Below are positions 38,716 through 47,218 of a DNA stretch of 64,000 bases, in pieces (position 1 is the stretch's first letter; every line of letters starts with the position of its first letter). The stretch comes from Naegleria gruberi (Eukaryota), in assembly GCA_000004985.1 (NCBI GenBank), contig GG738902.1; one strand, 5' to 3'. Position numbers and translations under genes: made by a program. The notes under the pieces are model-generated. The model did no database searches and was not told the origin of the DNA. It saw nothing but the letters and a program-made list of their open reading frames with translations.

Positions 38716-38759
38716 CTAGTTAAATTGTAAGAATATTAATCGATAATGCTAAAACTTAC

Positions 38760-39333
38760 GTAATCAATGAAACTGAAATATAATACTTGTCGAACAAGAC
38801 CCATTTCATGAAAATACCAACCAATCCACCAATCAAACTAGCAACAGCTGGAATAATCGTCGAGAATATTGGCATTCTCGAGAAGAAAAAGTTAACAACA
38901 CCAATAATTAATCCAATGAGAAGACAAGTAAACACCTCAGGTAAAGTTCCCTTCCATAATAATACAAACAATCCAGGTGTTAAAAAGTGGAAGAATAAAT
39001 TAATCATTGGATGGGAATAAATAACTGGTTCTTGAATGATCTTATTGATCTCAGCTTGAGCTTCATCAATTGTGAAATGTCCATGAGAAATATCACTGGC
39101 AACTTTATCAAGCTTTGCCAATTTATCCATATTTACAGTTTGTCCTTCTAATTTGATAAAATAAGTAAACATATTGTCATTCGATTCTTTTGGTCTATGT
39201 CCTAATCCAATCCAAATTCCATTAGTATTTACAGAAAAGTATGCATCTATACCGTAATACGACGAAATTAAAGTAAGGTGGTATTCCACTTTGTAAGAAC
39301 TCAATCCATATATTGAGAGAGCGTACGCCAGAT
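38760..39333 (-). CDS. ThrE-family protein (DUF1212 part), exon 2
   Basis: DUF1212-like sequence (...LEGQTVNMDKLAKLDKVASDISHGHFTIDEAQAEINKI) followed by TM helices. A GTATGT...CAAG intron (39334..39373) joins it to exon 1 in phase 1. Confidence 0.6.
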
Positions 39334-39373
39334 CTTGAAACTTGTCAAAAAATTATCCAAACAGAAAACATAC

Positions 39374-40850
39374 CAATAAGCAATGAGTGTACCTTCTTTC
39401 TATCGTCTGTCGATAAATCCTTATATAAAACTCTTGATTGATTCTTTTCTGATTGTCCTGTGAAAAAGTATTTGAATGAGCCAATAACTTTTTGTAATTT
39501 AGTCTTTGGTTTAGACACAGGCTCCTCCTCTATGGAGGGAATCCTCAGCATTGCTGTATCATTACCATCCTCTCCACTGCAACTAGATTCAGTTTCCACA
39601 GATACATCAGCTCCATCTATCAATTCCTCCTCATCACCTCCTGATTGCATTTGCTTTTCCTTTGCCTTGAGTAATTTTCTCTGATACCTAAGAGTGTTTC
39701 TGAGCTTTTTGAAATTGTAGGCACGCAAAGTTCTGGTTTGAGACGGAAGTAATACTCTTGGTGTTTCCAGAACAGATGCCAGCTTTTTTGTAGCTCTCTT
39801 AATGAAAGATGGTTTTTCTTCCAAGTTTTTCGATGAGAATATCATTGGCATTCGTTCTTTCAATGAGACACCTGTTTTCTTTTCAATTTGTCTTGCAAGA
39901 TTGTGAGCTGAATTGAACAGAGCACCTATTGCAGAATTTCCTCCATTTGTGAGTTCTTTTTCAGCCAACTTGCGCATATATTCATCCTCCAAAATACTTG
40001 GCTGCATAGTTGGATCCAAAACAAGAGATGAAATAGATTCCATTGAATCTGATGGCCTTAATAAATAACCAGGAATGGTTGGCAAAACAATTCCATCAAT
40101 AGATACTTCCTCCTTTCCAGAAAGTTGCAAAGTTGGTGGGATATGTAACAATCCTTCATCATCCACAGTTGCATCCACAGAAATTGTTTCATCATATGGT
40201 TGCAATTCATCCAATTCTACTTGTATAGGGGTTGAAGGTTTACTCTGATTTCGTTTAAGAATGATTGATCCATGTTGTTCACCAGTTTTCGATCCTCCAA
40301 AACTGAATTTAGCAGCCGATGATGTCACTGCTTCCTTTTGTAAATTATTGTAATTAGAATTTGGAATATCAACATTTAAATTTGGCTTGCTCCTAAATGA
40401 TGCAGGTGTAGTAGCCATAGTAAAATGTGATTGATTATTTGCATGATGATTTAAATTATGAATGGTTGGAGAACTACTCTCGGAAGAATCCTTTGAAAGA
40501 GCAACACCTTTAATATTCGATCGGGTTGATGTATTAATTGTTGTTTCATCATAGTGAGTTGCTGATGATTCTTCCACTGGTGTAGAGTATGGATTAACAA
40601 CCTCTTCATAAGTAGATGATGATGATTGTAGAGGATTCGTAAATACCAACAAATTAGCTTCGGAAGTTGCTGAAGACTGAGGATTTTGATGAGTCGTATT
40701 ATTTGCATGATTAGCATGCTGATGATGATTTGCTTCAAAAACCTGATGTAGCAGAGATGATCCTCCTTTGTTCTTGCTATTCATAGTAGCACTGCCCGTT
40801 GTTGGTGTTTTTGTGGGTTGAGCAGAAATAGAGTTTGAGTTTGCGCTCAT
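39374..40850 (-). CDS. ThrE-family protein, exon 1 (long Ser/Thr/Asn/His-rich cytosolic N-terminal region)
   Basis: ATG at 40850. Low-complexity but continuous ORF. It ends at a minus-strand G|GTATGT donor. Confidence 0.5.
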
Positions 40851-41217: not shown

Positions 41218-44200
41218 ATGGCCTCATCACCCGAGATTGTGGAGGTTGTTGATTCATCATCTACAATAGATAATTCTGAACAGAAGAGTTCTCTGATACC
41301 ATCTACTGACCATAACTCTTGGCTAACACCAGTTTCTATAAATCAACTTCTTCATAAAGCACAACAAGAAAAGGAAGAAGAAGAAAATAAGGAGGAAAAT
41401 ACAGATCCAAAGAAGAAAAAGAAGAAGATTCGTTGGTATCACACTAAATGTTTTATCTATTTTGCTGCTATTATACTTGCCGCTATTTCAATTTTGACCA
41501 TTATAATTTCATATGTCTTGTTTGTTAGACATAATCACTTGCTTTTTGTTTGTAATTCTGCAGAGTTTATTGTTGTTTCCTTCTTTGAAGTTATTATTTT
41601 GATTTGTGCTGCCATTGTTGCTTTTAAACTTAATGAATGGTACAAACAGCATCACTCAGAAGTTGCTGAATCAGATGAGGATTTAAAGTTGAAATATTCG
41701 GATAACTTGGCCAGAGACAAGTTGATTATGAAATTCCAAAACACAAGTGTAGTCATTTCACTCTGTTTACTTACAATTTTCACATTAATTTATTTAGCCC
41801 TTTTCGTCATCCTTCTTTACGGAATTTCTAAAACAACACCTTCGCTTTCAGGAGTAGAATATTATACACCAATTCAACATGAAACTGTGATAGAAAAGGA
41901 AAAGACAAGTGGTGTTTTTCACATTCACGCCAAGACTGACTATGAGTTATTCTTTGCACAAGGTGTAGTCACAGCAAAGGAGAGACTATTCCAAATGGAA
42001 ATTATGAGAAGAATGGGTCGTGGTACATTGTCTGCTCTGATTGGTGAAGATGCTCTTGAATTGGATAAGTGGAGCAGAACTCTAGGCCTTTTGAGAAATT
42101 CCAAAAATCATCTTCAAGATTTGGATTATCGTGCTAATTTAACTCTTACTGCTTTCTTTGATGGTGTAAATTCCTATTTGAAAACTAATCCTAAAATGCC
42201 ACCAGAATATTGGTTAATATTTAACAAGAAGACAATTCACAAGTTTGAGGTTGTTGATGCTCTCGTATTTTGGAAATTAGCTGCTTTGGATATTTCTACA
42301 AACATTTTTATGGAAAAAGTAAGATTTAATTCTTTAAGAAAGAACAATACTCTTGCTCATACTATGGAATTTTATCCAACCTATCCAAGAAGTTGGCCTG
42401 AACAATTCAAAAAGACTGATTTGAACATTCAAGCTACTCAAGAGGAGATTGATGCTCTTGAAGAAAGATTTACCAACAACTTTGGAGCCTTTATGCCAAA
42501 GAATGAACAAAGTGACAATGATAATAACAATGATGGAGATGGTGATATTGTTCCTGAAGACCCAGAAGATCCAATCGTACAAGAAGGATTCACTAGAAAA
42601 TTGAGAAAGATTAAGAAAAATCATCCGGCCGTCTATAATTCAATTGAATCATTCTTCAATAAGAAATCACACGAATCATACTTTGCTTCCAATGCTTGGG
42701 CAGTCCATGGATCAAAAACAAAGAATGGAAAACCAATATTGGCCAACGATCCACACATGAAATTAACTGCTCCACTTCCGTTCATTATGTTCCACTTGGT
42801 TTCAGAAGAAAGTGGTTTAGATACCATTGGTGCTACCTATCCACTCATTCCTGGTATTGTTATCGGAAGAAACAAGAATAGTTCATGGGCTATTACTTCA
42901 TCAGGATCTGACGTTCAGGATTTATTTGTATTGGATCAAATTAGTGACTCAACCTATGTTGTCAATGGAACAGAACATGACTATGTAACACATCAAGAGG
43001 AAATTCACTTTGATAATACTCAAAGTGTTACCATTCACGTTAAGGATAGCATTTATGGACCTGTTGTTAATACTCTTTTGGGATGGGAAGATATTCAAGA
43101 AGTTGTTGCTTTGAGCTGGACTGGTATTAAGGATAATGATACCAGTTTGAATGCTGTTATTGGAATCATGTACCAAAATAATTGGCCTCAATTCCATGAA
43201 AATATGAGACATTTGGTTTCTCCTCCTATGAATTATATTTATACTGATGCTGAAAATATTTGCTCACTCGTTGCTGGAATGGTTCCAATCAGAAAGTATG
43301 GACATACTGGATTGTTCCCAGTTTCTGGAAATGGTACCTTTGATTATGAAGGTTATGTTCCATATGAAAAGATGCCATATGTATGCAACCCAGAGAGAAA
43401 GTTTGTTGTTGCTGCCAATGCAAGAATTGAACCACCAGGATATCCATATTATCTTGGTGCTGATGTAGGTACAAAGTACAGACTGGAAAGAATCGAGGAT
43501 TTATTAAGTTCAAACAAGACCTTCAATATTACAAATATGGTCGACATTCAATTAGATACCTATTCTAAACTCTTCTTTGATTTGAAGCCATTTATCTCCA
43601 AGTTGAAAAATACTAGTTTAACATTCCAAGAAGAAGTTATCAGAAAAGATTTGGAAAAGTGGGACGGCTATCTTATTCTTGGATCTAAACAAGCAAGTCT
43701 TTTCGAAATGTTCCACACCAAACTTTGGAATATGTCTTATGCTGATTTGGGTGTTGAAAATTCAAATATTATTTACATTAAGAATGCTCTCAACAAAACA
43801 GGACGATGCTCTCCAAATCTTCCAAAGACTTGTATGTCATATGCAGTATCTGCATTCAAACAGTCTATTGCTGATTTGAAGGTACTCTCCAAGAGTACAG
43901 AGATTCCTTCTTGGGGTGTTGGTATTCACTCAACTACATATTTCCATCCAGTTTTCCACTCATATGCATTCTCTTGTGCATGCGACAAACGTCACTATGT
44001 TCCTGGTGGAACAGACACAATCAACTTTTCTCGTGTTACTGAGACCAATTTAGATTCTTCACATGGTGTTGCTTTCAGACAAATAACTTCTATGAGTGAT
44101 GCTGATGGTGATTTATTTATTACTCCTCTTGGGCAAAGTGCTAACTGGTTAGACTATGACTATCACTCTAATTTGCAAATATTTGCTGAGGGAAGATATC

Positions 44201-44268
44201 ACTCACTTAAACGAAAGAATTACAAGGTAACTTCAACACTTACTTTGAAACCTAAGGTCTCCCAATAA
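41218..44268 (+). CDS. Penicillin amidase / N-acyl-homoserine-lactone acylase family (peptidase S45, Ntn-hydrolase) with an N-terminal multi-TM region
   Basis: Alpha-subunit motif FFAQGVVTAKERLFQMEIMRRMGRGTLSAL. Beta-subunit N-terminal nucleophile motif FASNAWAVHGSKTKNGKPILANDPHM. About 4 predicted TM helices in residues 75-210. 1016 aa. Confidence 0.8.
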   Translation: MASSPEIVEVVDSSSTIDNSEQKSSLIPSTDHNSWLTPVSINQLLHKAQQEKEEEENKEENTDPKKKKKKIRWYHTKCFIYFAAIILAAISILTIIISYVLFVRHNHLLFVCNSAEFIVVSFFEVIILICAAIVAFKLNEWYKQHHSEVAESDEDLKLKYSDNLARDKLIMKFQNTSVVISLCLLTIFTLIYLALFVILLYGISKTTPSLSGVEYYTPIQHETVIEKEKTSGVFHIHAKTDYELFFAQGVVTAKERLFQMEIMRRMGRGTLSALIGEDALELDKWSRTLGLLRNSKNHLQDLDYRANLTLTAFFDGVNSYLKTNPKMPPEYWLIFNKKTIHKFEVVDALVFWKLAALDISTNIFMEKVRFNSLRKNNTLAHTMEFYPTYPRSWPEQFKKTDLNIQATQEEIDALEERFTNNFGAFMPKNEQSDNDNNNDGDGDIVPEDPEDPIVQEGFTRKLRKIKKNHPAVYNSIESFFNKKSHESYFASNAWAVHGSKTKNGKPILANDPHMKLTAPLPFIMFHLVSEESGLDTIGATYPLIPGIVIGRNKNSSWAITSSGSDVQDLFVLDQISDSTYVVNGTEHDYVTHQEEIHFDNTQSVTIHVKDSIYGPVVNTLLGWEDIQEVVALSWTGIKDNDTSLNAVIGIMYQNNWPQFHENMRHLVSPPMNYIYTDAENICSLVAGMVPIRKYGHTGLFPVSGNGTFDYEGYVPYEKMPYVCNPERKFVVAANARIEPPGYPYYLGADVGTKYRLERIEDLLSSNKTFNITNMVDIQLDTYSKLFFDLKPFISKLKNTSLTFQEEVIRKDLEKWDGYLILGSKQASLFEMFHTKLWNMSYADLGVENSNIIYIKNALNKTGRCSPNLPKTCMSYAVSAFKQSIADLKVLSKSTEIPSWGVGIHSTTYFHPVFHSYAFSCACDKRHYVPGGTDTINFSRVTETNLDSSHGVAFRQITSMSDADGDLFITPLGQSANWLDYDYHSNLQIFAEGRYHSLKRKNYKVTSTLTLKPKVSQ

Positions 44269-44360
44269 ATCGACTGATTAGTTGTGAATTAATGGTATTG
44301 TTGATTGGTAAACCCAATCAATTTTATTGTAAAAGTTCCACAACAATCAGAATAAAAAAA

Positions 44361-46607
44361 ATGAAGCGAAATCTACTTCGTTCTTCTCATGTGAGAAATA
44401 AGATCAAAACACATGCCAACAAGATTACACTTACCCGTCCAAACATATCACAGAAAATATCTCTCCAATCAGAATCCTACAATTTGTCCCCAAATGTTCG
44501 TTCCATCAGCTCCACGATCACACATGGTAACCCCTTGTTGAAACAGTCAATCAATGTTAATGATATTGGCTCAACTAATACTGCCAACATCAATAGAACA
44601 TTCTCAACTAATATATTGGTCATGCAAAATAATGACACAACCAAGACAGATGCCTTCTCCAATTTGATGGACAATCTCTTTGTGAAAGTTAAACGACACG
44701 ATGTATCTGAGCATGATAGGACATTTGCCAAGTTTTATGATTTGGATAGTGATGAATATGGATATGTGGATCCAAAAACAGATCCAAACAATAGGACTGT
44801 GACTGAGAATGGAGCTACAACCTTCAGCTCATCAGGATCAAATCTTGTTGATTTCTTTTATTTCACAGTGGAGGGAATTTCTCAACAAAAAATTCACAAA
44901 TTGTTGGATGCAAGTTGGAGAGAACAACCATTGAAAACTCTTAAAGTAATCTTCTTCATTAGAGATATTAGAAATGGAAAGGGTGAAAATGAAATCTTTT
45001 ACGAAACTCAAAGATGGCTTGCATTAAATCATCCTCAAACATTCCTTGAAAATCTCAAAAATGTTCCAACATCTGGTTATTGGAAAGATTTACAAAACGT
45101 ATTGCTCTACATTCGATATGGTGGTCATGAGCGAGACGAACGTCCTAATTGGGCTAAGGAAAAAAATGTATTATTGAAACGGTTGCCATCAGAAAAATCA
45201 CTCTATGAGAAAGCCATTTTCCAAAAGAGGCGTTCATATAGACCAATTAAAACAGAAGAAGATAGAAGAATAAGAGAGAAAGATATTGCCAATCAGGTCA
45301 AGCAGTCATTCTCACCAAACGAGTTGTGGAACCAAGAAGTAAGAAATACTGAAAAATTGGTTCTTACAAAGGAGGAAAGTAAGAAGTTGAAATTGGTTTA
45401 TGAGAAGGCTAAGGATATAGTTGTTGATTTGTATGTGGACCAATTATTGAAGGATCGTGAAAACCTTTCTAAGGGAGAAGTAAAATCTCTAACATTATGC
45501 GCTAAATGGGCTCCCACTATTAATCTATCAACTGATAGACAGTTGGGTATTGGTAAACAAATAGCTCAGAAACTTTTCCCATTCGATCAACCTGATGGTA
45601 TTCAACTTACAATTAGAAAAGAAGGAAAGGGAGATAAGAAATACACAGACCAACAAGTTTACAGATATTTGGCAAATATCAAGTATCAAAAGCTGTTGAG
45701 AGATTTGAGAAAGGCAACTGTTACTATTGAAACATTCATGTCATCAAAAGAGTGGTCCAATATTCCATACGAAAGGGTACCTTCTGTTTGTATGAATAAG
45801 AAGAAGAAATTATTTTCCTTAAAAGACAATGAAAGATTTGTATCTTTTTTGGAAAGTGTTAAAAAAGGAGAAAAGAAGATTAATGGAGCTGTTCTATTCC
45901 CTCACCAACTGATTGAACAGTTATATGCCTCACACTCAAAAGAAGTGAGTGATACTATTGAGCTACAATGGAGAGAAATTGTAAAGAATGTAAAAGAGAA
46001 ATCAGACAATGGAATATTCAACTGTATTCCTGTTTGTGATGTGAGTGGAAGTATGAATGGCACACCTTTAAACGTCTGTGTAGCATTAGGTCTATTAATG
46101 TCTGAAATTAATACTGGAATATTTAGAAATAAGATTATTACCTTCTCTGAAAACCCATCCTTTGTCGATTTATCTGGAATTGAAGGTGTTAAAGAGAGGT
46201 TTGATAATCTATGCAAGGCCGATTGGGGAATGTCCACCAATTATATATCCACTTTTAAATTAATATTGGAAATGGCATTGAAAAATAATCTACCAAAGGA
46301 TCAAATGATTAAGAAGGTTGTTGTCTTTTCAGATATGCAATTCAATGAAAGTAGTGCTGATACGACAAGCCATCAAGAAATTGTGGACATGTTCGCTGAA
46401 CATGGTTATGAAGCCCCTGGAATAATTTATTGGAATCTAAGAGGAGATGTCGATAATATTCCAATCACAGTGACAACAGATAATGTTGCTTGCATGTCTG
46501 GATTTAATGCAATTCTATTGAAAATGTTGATGGATATGGACTTGAGCATTGAAGGTCTTGTTGATGCTTCCATTAAAGATTATGATTTTGTAACATTACA
46601 CGACTAG
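44361..46607 (+). CDS. DUF2828-like protein with a C-terminal von Willebrand factor A (vWA) domain
   Basis: N-terminal ENGATTFSSSGSNLVDFFYF...LKVIFFIRDIRNGKGE...GYWKDL pattern typical of DUF2828. C-terminal vWA MIDAS DVSGSM...T...D. ATG at 44361; the track start at 44292 is not ATG. Confidence 0.6.
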   Translation: MKRNLLRSSHVRNKIKTHANKITLTRPNISQKISLQSESYNLSPNVRSISSTITHGNPLLKQSINVNDIGSTNTANINRTFSTNILVMQNNDTTKTDAFSNLMDNLFVKVKRHDVSEHDRTFAKFYDLDSDEYGYVDPKTDPNNRTVTENGATTFSSSGSNLVDFFYFTVEGISQQKIHKLLDASWREQPLKTLKVIFFIRDIRNGKGENEIFYETQRWLALNHPQTFLENLKNVPTSGYWKDLQNVLLYIRYGGHERDERPNWAKEKNVLLKRLPSEKSLYEKAIFQKRRSYRPIKTEEDRRIREKDIANQVKQSFSPNELWNQEVRNTEKLVLTKEESKKLKLVYEKAKDIVVDLYVDQLLKDRENLSKGEVKSLTLCAKWAPTINLSTDRQLGIGKQIAQKLFPFDQPDGIQLTIRKEGKGDKKYTDQQVYRYLANIKYQKLLRDLRKATVTIETFMSSKEWSNIPYERVPSVCMNKKKKLFSLKDNERFVSFLESVKKGEKKINGAVLFPHQLIEQLYASHSKEVSDTIELQWREIVKNVKEKSDNGIFNCIPVCDVSGSMNGTPLNVCVALGLLMSEINTGIFRNKIITFSENPSFVDLSGIEGVKERFDNLCKADWGMSTNYISTFKLILEMALKNNLPKDQMIKKVVVFSDMQFNESSADTTSHQEIVDMFAEHGYEAPGIIYWNLRGDVDNIPITVTTDNVACMSGFNAILLKMLMDMDLSIEGLVDASIKDYDFVTLHD

Positions 46608-46818: not shown

Positions 46819-47170
46819 ATGAAGAGTTTCATATTCCTACTTTTCATCACAATTCACTATTGTTGCCAAATTATCAACGCCTCCAATCCGATAATCAATA
46901 CCAACGACAACGACAATATTAAATTTAGTAATATTAATAATAATAATAATAATAATATTAAATATATTAATATTAATAATCAGAATGAAATTTCCTTTCT
47001 ATTAATGCACACTGATGATATGCACTCACATTTCGAAGGCTCTGGTCCTGATTCCTCACTCAATGATCGGAGTGTGATGAATGGAGGAAATCAAGTGATC
47101 GGACATTATGCTCGATTATTGACATTGATAAGGAAATTGAAAAGCAAGTTTAAGAATAATTTATTATTGG
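46819..47170 (+). CDS. 5'-nucleotidase / calcineurin-like metallophosphoesterase, exon 1 (signal peptide plus metal-binding motif I)
   Basis: Signal peptide MKSFIFLLFITIHYCCQIINA. LLMHTDDMHSHFEG matches motif I. A GTAAGT donor follows at 47171. Confidence 0.7.
46931..46980. repeat. AT-only (AAT)n-like microsatellite inside the 5'-nucleotidase exon 1 (encodes NINNNNNNNIKYININN)
   Basis: Perfect AAT runs. Coding low complexity. Confidence 0.8.
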
Positions 47171-47218
47171 GTAAGTAGTAGTTGAATGGGTTTGGATTTG
47201 ATGGTCAATTGGGGTTAG

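What the first reader, a model, noticed from the sequence alone, without database searches (positions are those of the whole stretch)
41218..44268. Penicillin/AHL-acylase (Ntn-hydrolase S45) fused to an N-terminal multi-pass membrane region
The catalytic signatures are textbook: the alpha-subunit (K/D)ERLFQM...RR motif and the beta-subunit N-terminal SNAWAV...NDPH nucleophile motif.

The first about 210 residues contain about four hydrophobic helices and a Lys/Glu-rich segment. Bacterial homologs are periplasmic and soluble.

A membrane-tethered acylase could be a surface quorum-quenching or lipid-amide-processing enzyme acting on bacterial prey.
Basis: partly seen in the sequence, partly recalled or inferred. 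Interest (0 to 1): 0.55.

Follow-up and report, generated by a model that had tools for sequence, protein, structure and literature searches.

The report
Membrane-anchored bacterial-type acylase in Naegleria
The amoeba Naegleria gruberi carries an intact penicillin/AHL-acylase-type enzyme of bacterial origin; one of its three membrane helices is inherited from bacterial relatives, and two helices plus two loops are a Naegleria-only add-on that is more conserved than the enzyme and has no known function.

Summary
Window 41218..44268 (+) is one uninterrupted 1016-aa ORF, 100% identical to a Naegleria gruberi 'predicted protein'. Residues 231-1004 are a full Penicil_amidase (S45 Ntn-hydrolase) domain (E 8e-154). 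Ser491 aligns to residue 1 of solved beta chains. His513, Asn734 and Arg755 are invariant across 92 homologues.

Two corrections:
- There are three hydrophobic helices, not about four. Three helices plus the positive-inside rule put the acylase outside the cytosol.
- The nearest bacterial relatives are not simply soluble. 77 of 88 have one anchor-length N-terminal helix, which aligns with Naegleria TM3. Tethering is therefore ancestral.

The Naegleria-specific part is a variable head, TM1, TM2 and two loops. This module has no homologue among 1.84 billion representative proteins. Its loops are 82-89% identical between species, against 58-72% for the catalytic subunits and 36-55% for TM3.

The gene looks like an old, fully integrated horizontal transfer. 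The substrate is unknown: the closest solved structures are D-succinylase and class III cephalosporin acylase, not PvdQ or MacQ. A Naegleria 'penicillin amidase homolog' is already in databases and proteomic lists. I rate it a new variant of a known kind, of moderate interest.

The parts
41218..44268 (+). Complete gene: 1016-aa S45 acylase precursor with N-terminal membrane region (single exon, stop included)
   Evidence: ORF; 100% identical to the NCBI Naegleria gruberi predicted protein, P0001
41218..41427 (+). Poorly conserved low-complexity head (aa 1-45) and Lys/Glu-rich segment ending in KKKKKK (aa 46-70); predicted cytosolic
   Evidence: 19-30% identity between species; pLDDT below 50; about 200 aa longer in N. 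fowleri and N. lovaniensis
41449..41526 (+). TM1 (aa 78-103), Naegleria-specific; 8 K/R in the N-terminal flank against 1 in the C-terminal flank, so N-terminus inside
   Evidence: absent from bacterial relatives
41527..41556 (+). Short extracytoplasmic loop RHNHLLFVCN (aa 104-113), 89% identical across species (His105, Asn106, His107 and Cys112 invariant)
41557..41628 (+). TM2 (aa 114-137), Naegleria-specific, with two invariant membrane-embedded glutamates (Glu116, Glu124) and Cys130
41629..41742 (+). Predicted cytosolic loop (aa 138-175), LNEWY..EDLKLKYSDN.AR.KLI.KFQN; 82-84% identical, among the most conserved parts of the protein
   Evidence: the tool picked FKLNEWY and WYHTKCF as the most conserved stretches of the whole protein
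41743..41832 (+). TM3 (aa 176-205): ancestral signal-anchor helix, aligned with the single N-terminal helix of bacterial relatives; only 36-55% identical between Naegleria species
   Evidence: pLDDT 80-90
41908..44229 (+). Penicil_amidase (PF01804) catalytic domain, aa 231-1004
   Evidence: E 8.1e-154; high pLDDT; TM-score 0.83 to D-succinylase 7eby
41974..42024 (+). Alpha-subunit motif AKERLFQMEIMRRMGRG (aa 253-269); Arg256, Leu257, Gln259 and Gly269 invariant in 92 homologues
42478..42687 (+). Alpha/beta spacer (aa 421-490), enlarged by about 65 aa of Naegleria-specific, partly acidic low-complexity sequence; presumed to be excised after autoproteolysis
   Evidence: insertion relative to bacteria; pLDDT below 50 at 442-487; 37-51% identity
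42688..42756 (+). Beta-subunit N-terminus SNAWAV...ANDPH: Ser491 (beta-Ser1, nucleophile and autoproteolysis site Ala490|Ser491) to His513 (beta-His23)
   Evidence: aligns to residue 1 of beta chains 4hst_B, 1ai4_B and others; Ser491, Asn492, Trp494, Asp511 and His513 invariant
43417..43482 (+). Asn734 (beta-244, oxyanion-hole Asn in 'AAN') to Arg755 (beta-265, in 'YRxERI'), both invariant in 92 homologues

Best explanation
This is a bacterial-type S45 N-terminal-nucleophile acylase that an ancestor of Naegleria acquired by horizontal transfer. It is now a fully domesticated, single-exon eukaryotic gene.

Shown here:
- The catalytic domain is complete and every key catalytic residue is conserved.
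- The protein has three hydrophobic helices.
- The third helix corresponds to the single N-terminal anchor helix of the closest bacterial relatives.
- Upstream of it, Naegleria added a variable low-complexity head, a poly-lysine stretch, two more transmembrane helices and two loops. This added module has no detectable relative anywhere and is more conserved than the enzyme itself.

Inferred:
- The N-terminus and the aa 138-175 loop are cytosolic, and the acylase domain faces the lumen of the secretory or endolysosomal pathway, or the cell exterior.
- The precursor cuts itself between Ala490 and Ser491 and the spacer is lost. The beta subunit then stays bound to a membrane-anchored alpha subunit, held about 7 residues from the bilayer.
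- The enzyme hydrolyses the amide bond of N-acylated small molecules met by this bacterivore. My best guess is hydrophobic N-acyl amides of bacterial origin, such as acyl-homoserine lactones, lipopeptides, N-acyl amino acids or beta-lactams.
- The conserved TM1-TM2-loop module is more than a tether. It most likely directs sorting or binds a partner on the cytosolic or intramembrane side.
For: Family and catalytic residues:
- PF01804 at E 8e-154 over aa 231-1004.
- Ser491 aligns with beta residue 1 of solved acylases.
- Ser491, His513, Asn734 and Arg755 are invariant in a 92-sequence alignment.
- The AF2 model has pLDDT 82 and pTM 0.81. Its best PDB match is D-succinylase, TM-score 0.83.

Bacterial origin and integration:
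- The only close relatives are three other Naegleria-type proteins at 58-66% identity. Everything else is bacterial at 22-30%.
- The Naegleria sequences form one long-branched clade inside the bacterial sequences.
- GC, GC3 and codon usage match the neighbouring eukaryotic genes, r = 0.91.
- The neighbours are a ThrE-family gene and a DUF2828 gene.

Membrane region:
- Three hydrophobic segments with KD about 2.9 and three long helices in the model.
- TM3 aligns with the bacterial N-terminal helix. That helix is of anchor length in 77 of 88 relatives.

Topology:
- K/R counts in the flanks are 8 against 1 around TM1 and 3 against 0 around TM3.
- Eight N-glycosylation sequons and six cysteines in the catalytic domain are conserved in all four Naegleria orthologues.

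The module is real and constrained:
- It is a single ORF in three genomes.
- Loop identity is 82-89% against 58-72% for the catalytic subunits.
- It is an orphan in an exhaustive search of 1.84 billion representatives.

Expression:
- The N. fowleri 'penicillin amidase homolog' Q25548 was detected by mass spectrometry in extracellular vesicles and in a 100-kDa immunogenic band (PMC9312180; PMC7350353).
Against: - No enzymatic, localisation or processing data exist for any Naegleria member.
- No dedicated topology or signal-peptide predictor was available. The topology rests on hydropathy, the positive-inside rule and homology.
- TM1 and TM2 have only moderate model confidence (pLDDT 50-73), because only four sequences cover them.
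- One conserved sequon (Asn175) lies on the predicted cytosolic side.
- Sequon and cysteine conservation is suggestive, not tested statistically.
- The substrate is unresolved. The closest solved relatives act on succinyl-D-amino acids and glutaryl-7-ACA, and the PvdQ model is far below threshold.
- The donor lineage cannot be resolved at about 25-30% identity.
- I did not confirm that Q25548 is the orthologue of this gene rather than a paralogue.
Confidence: 0.7

Rival explanations
1. The whole N-terminal membrane region is a long targeting or pro-sequence. Signal peptidase or a lysosomal protease cuts after TM3, releasing a soluble lumenal or secreted acylase. In that case the mature enzyme is not membrane-tethered.
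For: A small-residue pattern (S/V-x-S followed by invariant Gly212) lies 6-9 residues after TM3 in all four orthologues. Classical S45 enzymes are soluble periplasmic proteins with cleaved signal peptides (review PMC5474475).
Against: TM3 and its bacterial counterparts are 20-25 uncharged residues long, which is anchor length rather than the 7-15 of a cleavable signal. Gly212 is invariant in bacteria too and starts the first beta-strand of the fold, so it is structural rather than a cleavage determinant. Very strong conservation of the cytosolic loop would be odd for a disposable pro-region. Detection in N. fowleri extracellular vesicles fits a membrane protein but does not prove it.
Confidence: 0.2
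2. It is specifically a quorum-quenching AHL acylase, used by the amoeba to silence bacterial prey at its surface or in the phagosome.
For: Many S45 enzymes, including cell-associated ones such as P. syringae HacB and Ralstonia Aac, hydrolyse AHLs (PMC5474475). Pseudomonas 'penicillin acylase family' proteins of 785-802 aa are among the homologues. Beta-24 is Met or Leu (hydrophobic) in Naegleria and the close bacterial relatives, whereas D-succinylase has Arg there. The enzyme faces outward in a bacterivore.
Against: The PvdQ equivalog scores 36.8 against a cut-off of 950. PvdQ and MacQ rank far below D-succinylase and cephalosporin acylases by sequence and fold. S45 specificity cannot be predicted at 25% identity. 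No S45-type eukaryotic AHL acylase has been characterised: the 2017 review lists only FAAH and porcine acylase I. I did not test whether the Pseudomonas hits are HacB orthologues.
Confidence: 0.25
3. It is a literal antibiotic-modifying enzyme (beta-lactam acylase) that protects the amoeba's food bacteria or symbionts, or takes part in 'penicillin biosynthesis', as KEGG-based annotation of Willaertia suggests.
For: KEGG K01434 annotation and the interpretation in the Willaertia magna papers (PMC6892926; PMC7285305). Several relatives, such as MacQ, HacB and AhlM, have side activity on penicillins.
Against: This is annotation transfer only. An amoeba is not a beta-lactam target. The Willaertia authors themselves note that other roles are possible. 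E. coli-type PGA is a more distant relative than D-succinylase.
Confidence: 0.08
4. It is an artefact: bacterial contamination, or a chimeric gene model that joins an unrelated membrane protein to an acylase.
For: All non-Naegleria homologues are bacterial. The N-terminal module has no homologues.
Against: The ORF is uninterrupted with host-like composition and codon usage, and sits between eukaryotic genes. The same architecture appears as a single ORF in N. fowleri (715-kb contig), in N. lovaniensis and in an environmental relative. The module is strongly conserved. Peptides have been detected in N. fowleri.
Confidence: 0.02

Closest known systems
Bacterial 'penicillin acylase family protein' subfamily of about 750-820 aa with one N-terminal hydrophobic helix (Alphaproteobacteria such as Elstera, Roseomonas, Zavarzinia; Pseudomonas; many metagenomic sequences)
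   Same: Best non-Naegleria sequence matches (E 1e-77 to 1e-45, 22-30% identity over the whole catalytic domain). They share the catalytic residues and the layout of anchor helix, about 10 residues, invariant Gly, then the alpha subunit. The anchor helix aligns with TM3.
   Different: They have no TM1, TM2 or conserved loop, no low-complexity head and no enlarged spacer. They are bacterial rather than eukaryotic. None of the closest hits is biochemically characterised. I suspect from memory that the Pseudomonas members are HacB orthologues, but I did not test it.
D-succinylase (DSA) of Cupriavidus sp. P4-10-C, PDB 7eby / 7ea4
   Same: Closest solved structure by sequence (E 3.6e-44) and by fold (Foldseek E 1.8e-48, TM-score 0.83). 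It has the same Ser1 / His23 / Asn / Arg constellation.
   Different: Only 21% identical. It has beta-Arg24 where Naegleria has Met. It has no multi-pass membrane module. Its substrate (N-succinyl-D-amino acids) cannot be transferred to this protein.
Class III cephalosporin (glutaryl-7-ACA) acylase, PDB 4hsr / 4hst
   Same: Second-closest solved relative (beta chain E 2e-26, TM-score 0.86). The nucleophile, His23, Asn and Arg all align.
   Different: A soluble bacterial enzyme, about 21% identical, with a dicarboxylic acyl substrate.
AHL acylases PvdQ (2wyb), MacQ (5c9i), HacB and AhlM; E. coli penicillin G acylase (1ai4 and others)
   Same: Same S45 family, same fold and same autoproteolytic Ntn mechanism. 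Some are reported as cell-associated (PMC5474475).
   Different: More distant than the two above (PvdQ E 5e-5 by sequence, Foldseek rank about 50). The PvdQ equivalog threshold is not met.
Naegleria fowleri 'Penicillin amidase homolog (fragment)' Q25548 / FDP41_002730, N. lovaniensis C9374_003043 and the Willaertia magna penicillin amidase (K01434)
   Same: These are orthologues: 58-62% identity, with the same three-helix module plus acylase architecture. The gene family is therefore already recorded in databases and proteomic tables.
   Different: In N. fowleri and N. lovaniensis the low-complexity head is about 200 aa longer. I found no publication that describes the membrane module, topology or function. 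I did not examine the Willaertia sequence.

Membership tests
Peptidase family S45 / Pfam PF01804 Penicil_amidase (Ntn-hydrolase) | Significant match to the family profile over the full domain | tested here: met
   514.7 bits against a gathering cut-off of 21.3; profile positions 9-673 of 675
Peptidase family S45 / Pfam PF01804 Penicil_amidase (Ntn-hydrolase) | Serine nucleophile at the position that becomes the beta-subunit N-terminus | tested here: met
   Ser491 aligns with residue 1 of beta chains 4hst_B, 1ai4_B, 7rep and others; invariant in 92 sequences
Peptidase family S45 / Pfam PF01804 Penicil_amidase (Ntn-hydrolase) | Supporting catalytic residues (beta-23 His/Gln, oxyanion-hole Asn, conserved Arg) | tested here: met
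   His513, Asn734 and Arg755 are invariant in alignment A3 and align with the equivalents in class III cephalosporin acylase and D-succinylase
Peptidase family S45 / Pfam PF01804 Penicil_amidase (Ntn-hydrolase) | Alpha-beta-beta-alpha Ntn fold of the heterodimeric acylases | tested here: met
   AF2 model with pLDDT above 90 over most of aa 210-1010; Foldseek TM-score 0.83 to 7eby_A and 0.86 to 4hst_B. This is a prediction, not an experimental structure.
Peptidase family S45 / Pfam PF01804 Penicil_amidase (Ntn-hydrolase) | Autoproteolytic maturation into alpha and beta subunits, and amidase activity | not testable with these tools
   Needs protein expression, a western blot or mass spectrometry, and enzyme assays
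PvdQ-type bifunctional AHL/pyoverdine acylase (NCBIfam NF051460 equivalog) | Score above the equivalog cut-off | tested here: not met
   36.8 bits against a cut-off of 950; only aa 488-633 match
AHL (quorum-quenching) acylases as a functional class | Hydrolysis of N-acyl-homoserine lactones | not testable with these tools
   Sequence cannot decide this. The nearest solved relatives have other substrates.
Single-helix-anchored bacterial acylase subfamily (closest relatives) | One anchor-length N-terminal helix directly preceding the alpha subunit | tested here: met
   TM3 (aa 176-205) aligns with the bacterial helix. 77 of 88 relatives have KD19 of at least 1.6, with a median uncharged run of 22 aa. 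Naegleria has two further helices that the subfamily lacks.
Eukaryotic gene acquired by horizontal transfer from bacteria | Nested among bacterial homologues, absent from other eukaryotes among close hits, and integrated in a eukaryotic genomic context | tested here: inconclusive
   Taxon distribution, a monophyletic long branch inside bacterial sequences in an NJ tree, and host-like composition and neighbours all fit HGT. There is no supported maximum-likelihood tree, and Willaertia, Acanthamoeba and Rhynchopus homologues were not sampled.

The most novel reading that the evidence does not exclude
The orphan TM1-loop-TM2-loop module has invariant His-Asn-His on the outer face, two invariant membrane-embedded glutamates and an 82-84% conserved cytosolic loop. 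It could be a new functional domain that couples a horizontally acquired acylase to the amoeba's cell biology. Two examples: it could sort the enzyme to phagosomes or extracellular vesicles, or it could act as a pH/metal-gated or signal-relaying unit. Either way, a eukaryotic predator would destroy, or even sense, bacterial N-acyl signals at a membrane.
Probability: 0.15. Interest if true: 0.7.

Novelty: new variant of a known kind. Interest (0 to 1): 0.4.

Why it matters
- S45 acylases are a classical bacterial family, important in antibiotic manufacture and in quorum quenching. As far as the literature I could search shows, no eukaryotic member has been characterised.
- This gene is a clean example of a bacterial periplasmic-type enzyme being refitted for the eukaryotic secretory pathway. 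It kept its ancestral signal-anchor helix and then gained a lineage-specific membrane module.
- That the new module is more conserved than the enzyme is a concrete, testable clue to a function beyond anchoring.
- The orthologue in the pathogen N. fowleri is expressed, reported in immunogenic gel bands and found in extracellular vesicles. Its topology and exposure therefore matter for antigen and diagnostic work.
- Against this, the enzyme family, its presence in Naegleria and its probable HGT origin are all already on record. The finding adds to that record but does not change it.

Tried and rejected
1. A word-index homology search with the N-terminal 179 aa alone returned nothing, not even the protein itself. 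I treat it as uninformative and replaced it with the exhaustive profile search.
2. Two metagenome scans, one with the module alignment and one with the full-length alignment, both used the motifs WYHTKCF and FKLNEWY. Neither found a confirmed locus. They also missed the known P0002 contig, so this is weak negative evidence.
3. I looked for a counterpart of the extra N. fowleri/N. lovaniensis N-terminal ~230 aa in the window by tblastn. There is none beyond the shared WLxPVS region. N. gruberi simply has a short head.
4. Synteny: the neighbours in N. fowleri (L001) and in the P0002 contig (L003) are unrelated to those in the window, so genomic context gives no functional clue.
5. The bacterial promoter/terminator scan is irrelevant for a eukaryote and showed nothing above shuffles.
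6. An internal start at Met171, which would recreate a bacterial-like single-anchor protein, is rejected as a conserved feature. That residue is Leu in N. fowleri and N. lovaniensis.
7. Weak hits of the N-terminus to DUF1634 and to a Bf21 immunity family are far below their cut-offs and reflect hydrophobic composition.
8. Literature searches found only list-type mentions. The two main N. fowleri genome papers do not mention the gene.
9. I could not read the model coordinates, so I could not check disulfide pairing or the orientation of the active site relative to the membrane.
Full report
**What is there**

Window 41218..44268 (+) is a single uninterrupted ORF of 1016 codons starting with ATG. 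An in-frame stop lies 22 codons upstream. The window is AT-rich (about 32-36% GC throughout), and the neighbouring ORFs have eukaryote-style low-complexity tracts.

The protein is 100% identical, end to end, to an NCBI 'predicted protein [Naegleria gruberi]' (P0001). The window is therefore N. gruberi nuclear DNA, and the annotated gene model is exactly this ORF.

**The acylase domain**

- Pfam PF01804 (Penicil_amidase) matches aa 231-1004 at E 8.1e-154, covering profile positions 9-673 of 675.
- Against PDB sequences, the best hits are D-succinylase 7eby/7ea4 (E 3.6e-44), then penicillin G acylases and class III glutaryl-7-ACA acylase. PvdQ is far weaker (E 5e-5).
- Ser491, in FA|SNAWAV, aligns with residue 1 of the mature beta chains. 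His513, in ANDPH, aligns with beta-His23.
- In a 92-sequence alignment, Ser491, Asn492, Trp494, Asp511, His513, Asn734 and Arg755 are invariant. So are the alpha-subunit residues Arg256, Leu257 and Gln259 of the ERLFQM motif.
- An AlphaFold2 model built on that alignment has mean pLDDT 82 and pTM 0.81, with pLDDT above 90 over most of the catalytic domain.
- Foldseek against the PDB ranks D-succinylase first (TM-score 0.83) and the class III cephalosporin acylase beta chain next (0.86). E. coli-type PGA, MacQ and PvdQ come later.
- The NCBIfam PvdQ equivalog model scores 36.8 bits against a cut-off of 950.

Membership of family S45 is secure and the enzyme looks catalytically competent. Nothing assigns it to the PvdQ/AHL-acylase subgroup.

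**The membrane region**

Kyte-Doolittle analysis gives three, not four, strongly hydrophobic segments: aa 78-103, 114-137 and 176-205, with maxima of 2.85-2.91. No other segment in the protein reaches 1.6. The AF2 model likewise shows three long helices, at 66-104, 115-146 and 164-204.

Flanking K/R counts are 8 against 1 around TM1 and 3 against 0 around TM3. By the positive-inside rule, the N-terminus and the aa 138-175 loop are cytosolic and the acylase domain is on the non-cytosolic side.

Three further observations fit this topology:
- In the bacterial relatives, the matching helix leads into a domain that is periplasmic in characterised S45 enzymes (review).
- Eight N-X-S/T sequons in the catalytic domain are conserved in all four Naegleria-type orthologues.
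- Six cysteines in the catalytic domain are conserved in the same four orthologues.

The helix count matters. Four helices would have put the enzyme in the cytosol.

**What is ancestral and what is new**

The closest non-Naegleria homologues are bacterial 'penicillin acylase family' proteins of about 750-820 aa. They are 22-30% identical and come from Alphaproteobacteria, Pseudomonas and many metagenomic sources.

These proteins are not simply soluble. 77 of 88 have an N-terminal hydrophobic segment with KD19 of at least 1.6 (median 2.42) and a median uncharged run of 22 residues. That is anchor length rather than the short h-region of a cleaved signal peptide. In the alignment this helix coincides with Naegleria TM3. 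It is followed in both groups by about 7-10 residues and an invariant Gly (Gly212) that starts the first beta-strand.

Tethering by one helix is therefore probably inherited. The Naegleria-specific additions are:
- a variable head;
- the poly-Lys stretch;
- TM1, a 10-residue loop (RHNHLLFVCN), TM2 and a 38-residue loop;
- a separate insertion of about 65 aa in the alpha/beta spacer.

**The added module is real, constrained and an orphan**

The whole protein, module included, is one uninterrupted ORF in three places:
- here;
- in N. fowleri (3711 bp on a 715-kb contig);
- in an environmental relative (2994 bp).

This removes the 'mis-joined exon' objection.

Identity of N. gruberi to the three orthologues, by region:

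| Region | Identity |
|---|---|
| Head | 19-30% |
| Basic stretch + TM1 | 60-68% |
| Loop 1 | 89% |
| TM2 | 62-75% |
| Cytosolic loop | 82-84% |
| TM3 | 36-55% |
| Alpha subunit | 65-72% |
| Spacer | 37-51% |
| Beta subunit | 58-68% |

The new loops are thus the most conserved parts of the protein, while the ancestral anchor evolves like a passive helix. Invariant residues include His105, Asn106, His107, Cys112, two membrane-embedded glutamates (Glu116, Glu124), Cys130 and the motif FKLNEWY...EDLKLKYSDN.AR.KLI.KFQN.

A profile of the module searched exhaustively against 1.84 billion representative proteins found only the Naegleria cluster itself, at E 1.7e-78. Two metagenome DNA scans found nothing more, though they also missed a contig known to carry the gene.

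I cannot assign a function to this module. Its conservation argues for something beyond anchoring, such as sorting, partner binding, or ion or pH sensing.

**Origin**

Several observations point to an old horizontal transfer into the Naegleria lineage followed by full amelioration:
- Only Naegleria-type sequences are close, and all other hits are bacterial.
- In a neighbour-joining tree the four form one long-branched clade inside the bacterial sequences, with no clear donor.
- GC (0.352), GC3 (0.281) and codon usage (r = 0.91) match the flanking genes.
- Those flanking genes are a ThrE-family gene and a DUF2828/DUF7788 gene.

A recent preprint treats penicillin amidase in diplonemids as HGT and notes its presence in several protists. 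I did not run a supported ML phylogeny or sample Willaertia, Acanthamoeba or Rhynchopus, so I call the HGT inference likely rather than proven.

**What is already known**

- UniProt holds an N. fowleri 'Penicillin amidase homolog (fragment)', Q25548.
- It appears in mass-spectrometry lists from N. fowleri extracellular vesicles (PMC9312180).
- It also appears in a 100-kDa immunogenic band (PMC7350353).
- Willaertia magna papers list a penicillin amidase (K01434) transcribed at a low level and interpret it as antibiotic-related.
- The N. fowleri genome papers I checked do not mention it.
- The 2017 review of AHL acylases lists no S45-type eukaryotic enzyme.
- I found no description of the membrane module or topology.

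**Most likely mechanism**

*Shown:* an intact S45 catalytic apparatus, three hydrophobic helices, the homology of TM3 to the bacterial anchor, and the conservation and orphan status of the added module.

*Inferred:*
- The protein enters the ER with its N-terminus in the cytosol.
- It cleaves itself at Ala490|Ser491 and loses the spacer.
- It then works as an alpha/beta heterodimer held close to the lumenal or outer face of a membrane through the alpha subunit.
- In that position it hydrolyses N-acyl amide bonds in compounds the bacterivore meets.

The hydrophobic residue at beta-24 (Met or Leu, where D-succinylase has Arg) is a weak hint towards hydrophobic acyl groups. AHLs are one candidate substrate among several.

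**Verdict**

This is a new architectural variant of a well-known enzyme family, in a lineage where the gene was already catalogued. The unexpectedly strong conservation of the added module is the one puzzling element. Interest is moderate, about 0.4.

Noticed in passing
window 38756-40850 (- strand): Two adjacent minus-strand ORFs (39345..40850, 501 aa, Ser/Asn/Thr-rich with no Pfam hit; and 38756..39304, 182 aa, matching ThrE, putative threonine/serine exporter, at E 1.6e-25) are separated by about 40 nt. They look like two exons of one gene, transcribed divergently from the acylase across a 367-bp intergenic region.
   Followed up: partly
window 44292-46607 (+ strand): A 771-aa ORF with DUF2828 (E 2.4e-85) and DUF7788 (E 6e-57) starts only 24 nt after the acylase stop codon. 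A hairpin followed by a T-run at 44300-44322 lies inside its first codons, so the real start is probably a downstream Met. It is not conserved next to the acylase in other species.
   Followed up: partly
window 46819-47178 (+ strand): A 119-aa ORF with a signal-peptide-like N-terminus, a poly-Asn tract and an 'HTDDMHSHFEG' motif that, from memory, resembles metallophosphoesterases or 5'-nucleotidases. It has no Pfam hit at E < 0.001 and is probably the first exon of a larger gene.
   Followed up: no
L001 6001-9711 (N. fowleri) and P0004 (N. lovaniensis): The orthologues in N. fowleri (1236 aa) and N. lovaniensis (1188 aa) carry about 200 extra N-terminal residues of mostly low-complexity sequence in the same ORF. 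The first ~60 aa (MSSQFKAVANASREVGRDLLQQ...) are well conserved between the two species and absent from N. gruberi and from the environmental relative P0002.
   Followed up: partly
P0004 (N. lovaniensis), alignment A1 columns ~1114-1158 and the C-terminus: The N. lovaniensis model lacks about 45 residues inside the beta subunit and has a divergent, truncated C-terminus (…NNLKFLQREDITL). This looks like a gene-model or assembly error rather than biology.
   Followed up: no
window 41740-41748 (aa 175-177): An N-X-S/T sequon (QNTS/QNAT) immediately before TM3 is conserved in all four orthologues, although it lies on the predicted cytosolic side. It may be part of the conserved KFQN motif rather than a glycosylation site.
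   Followed up: no
window 41728-41730 (Met171): In N. gruberi and P0002 a Met sits four residues before TM3 (MKFQNTS + helix), giving a sequence that looks like the N-terminus of the bacterial relatives. It is Leu in N. fowleri and N. lovaniensis. It may mark the ancestral start codon, upstream of which the new module was added.
   Followed up: partly
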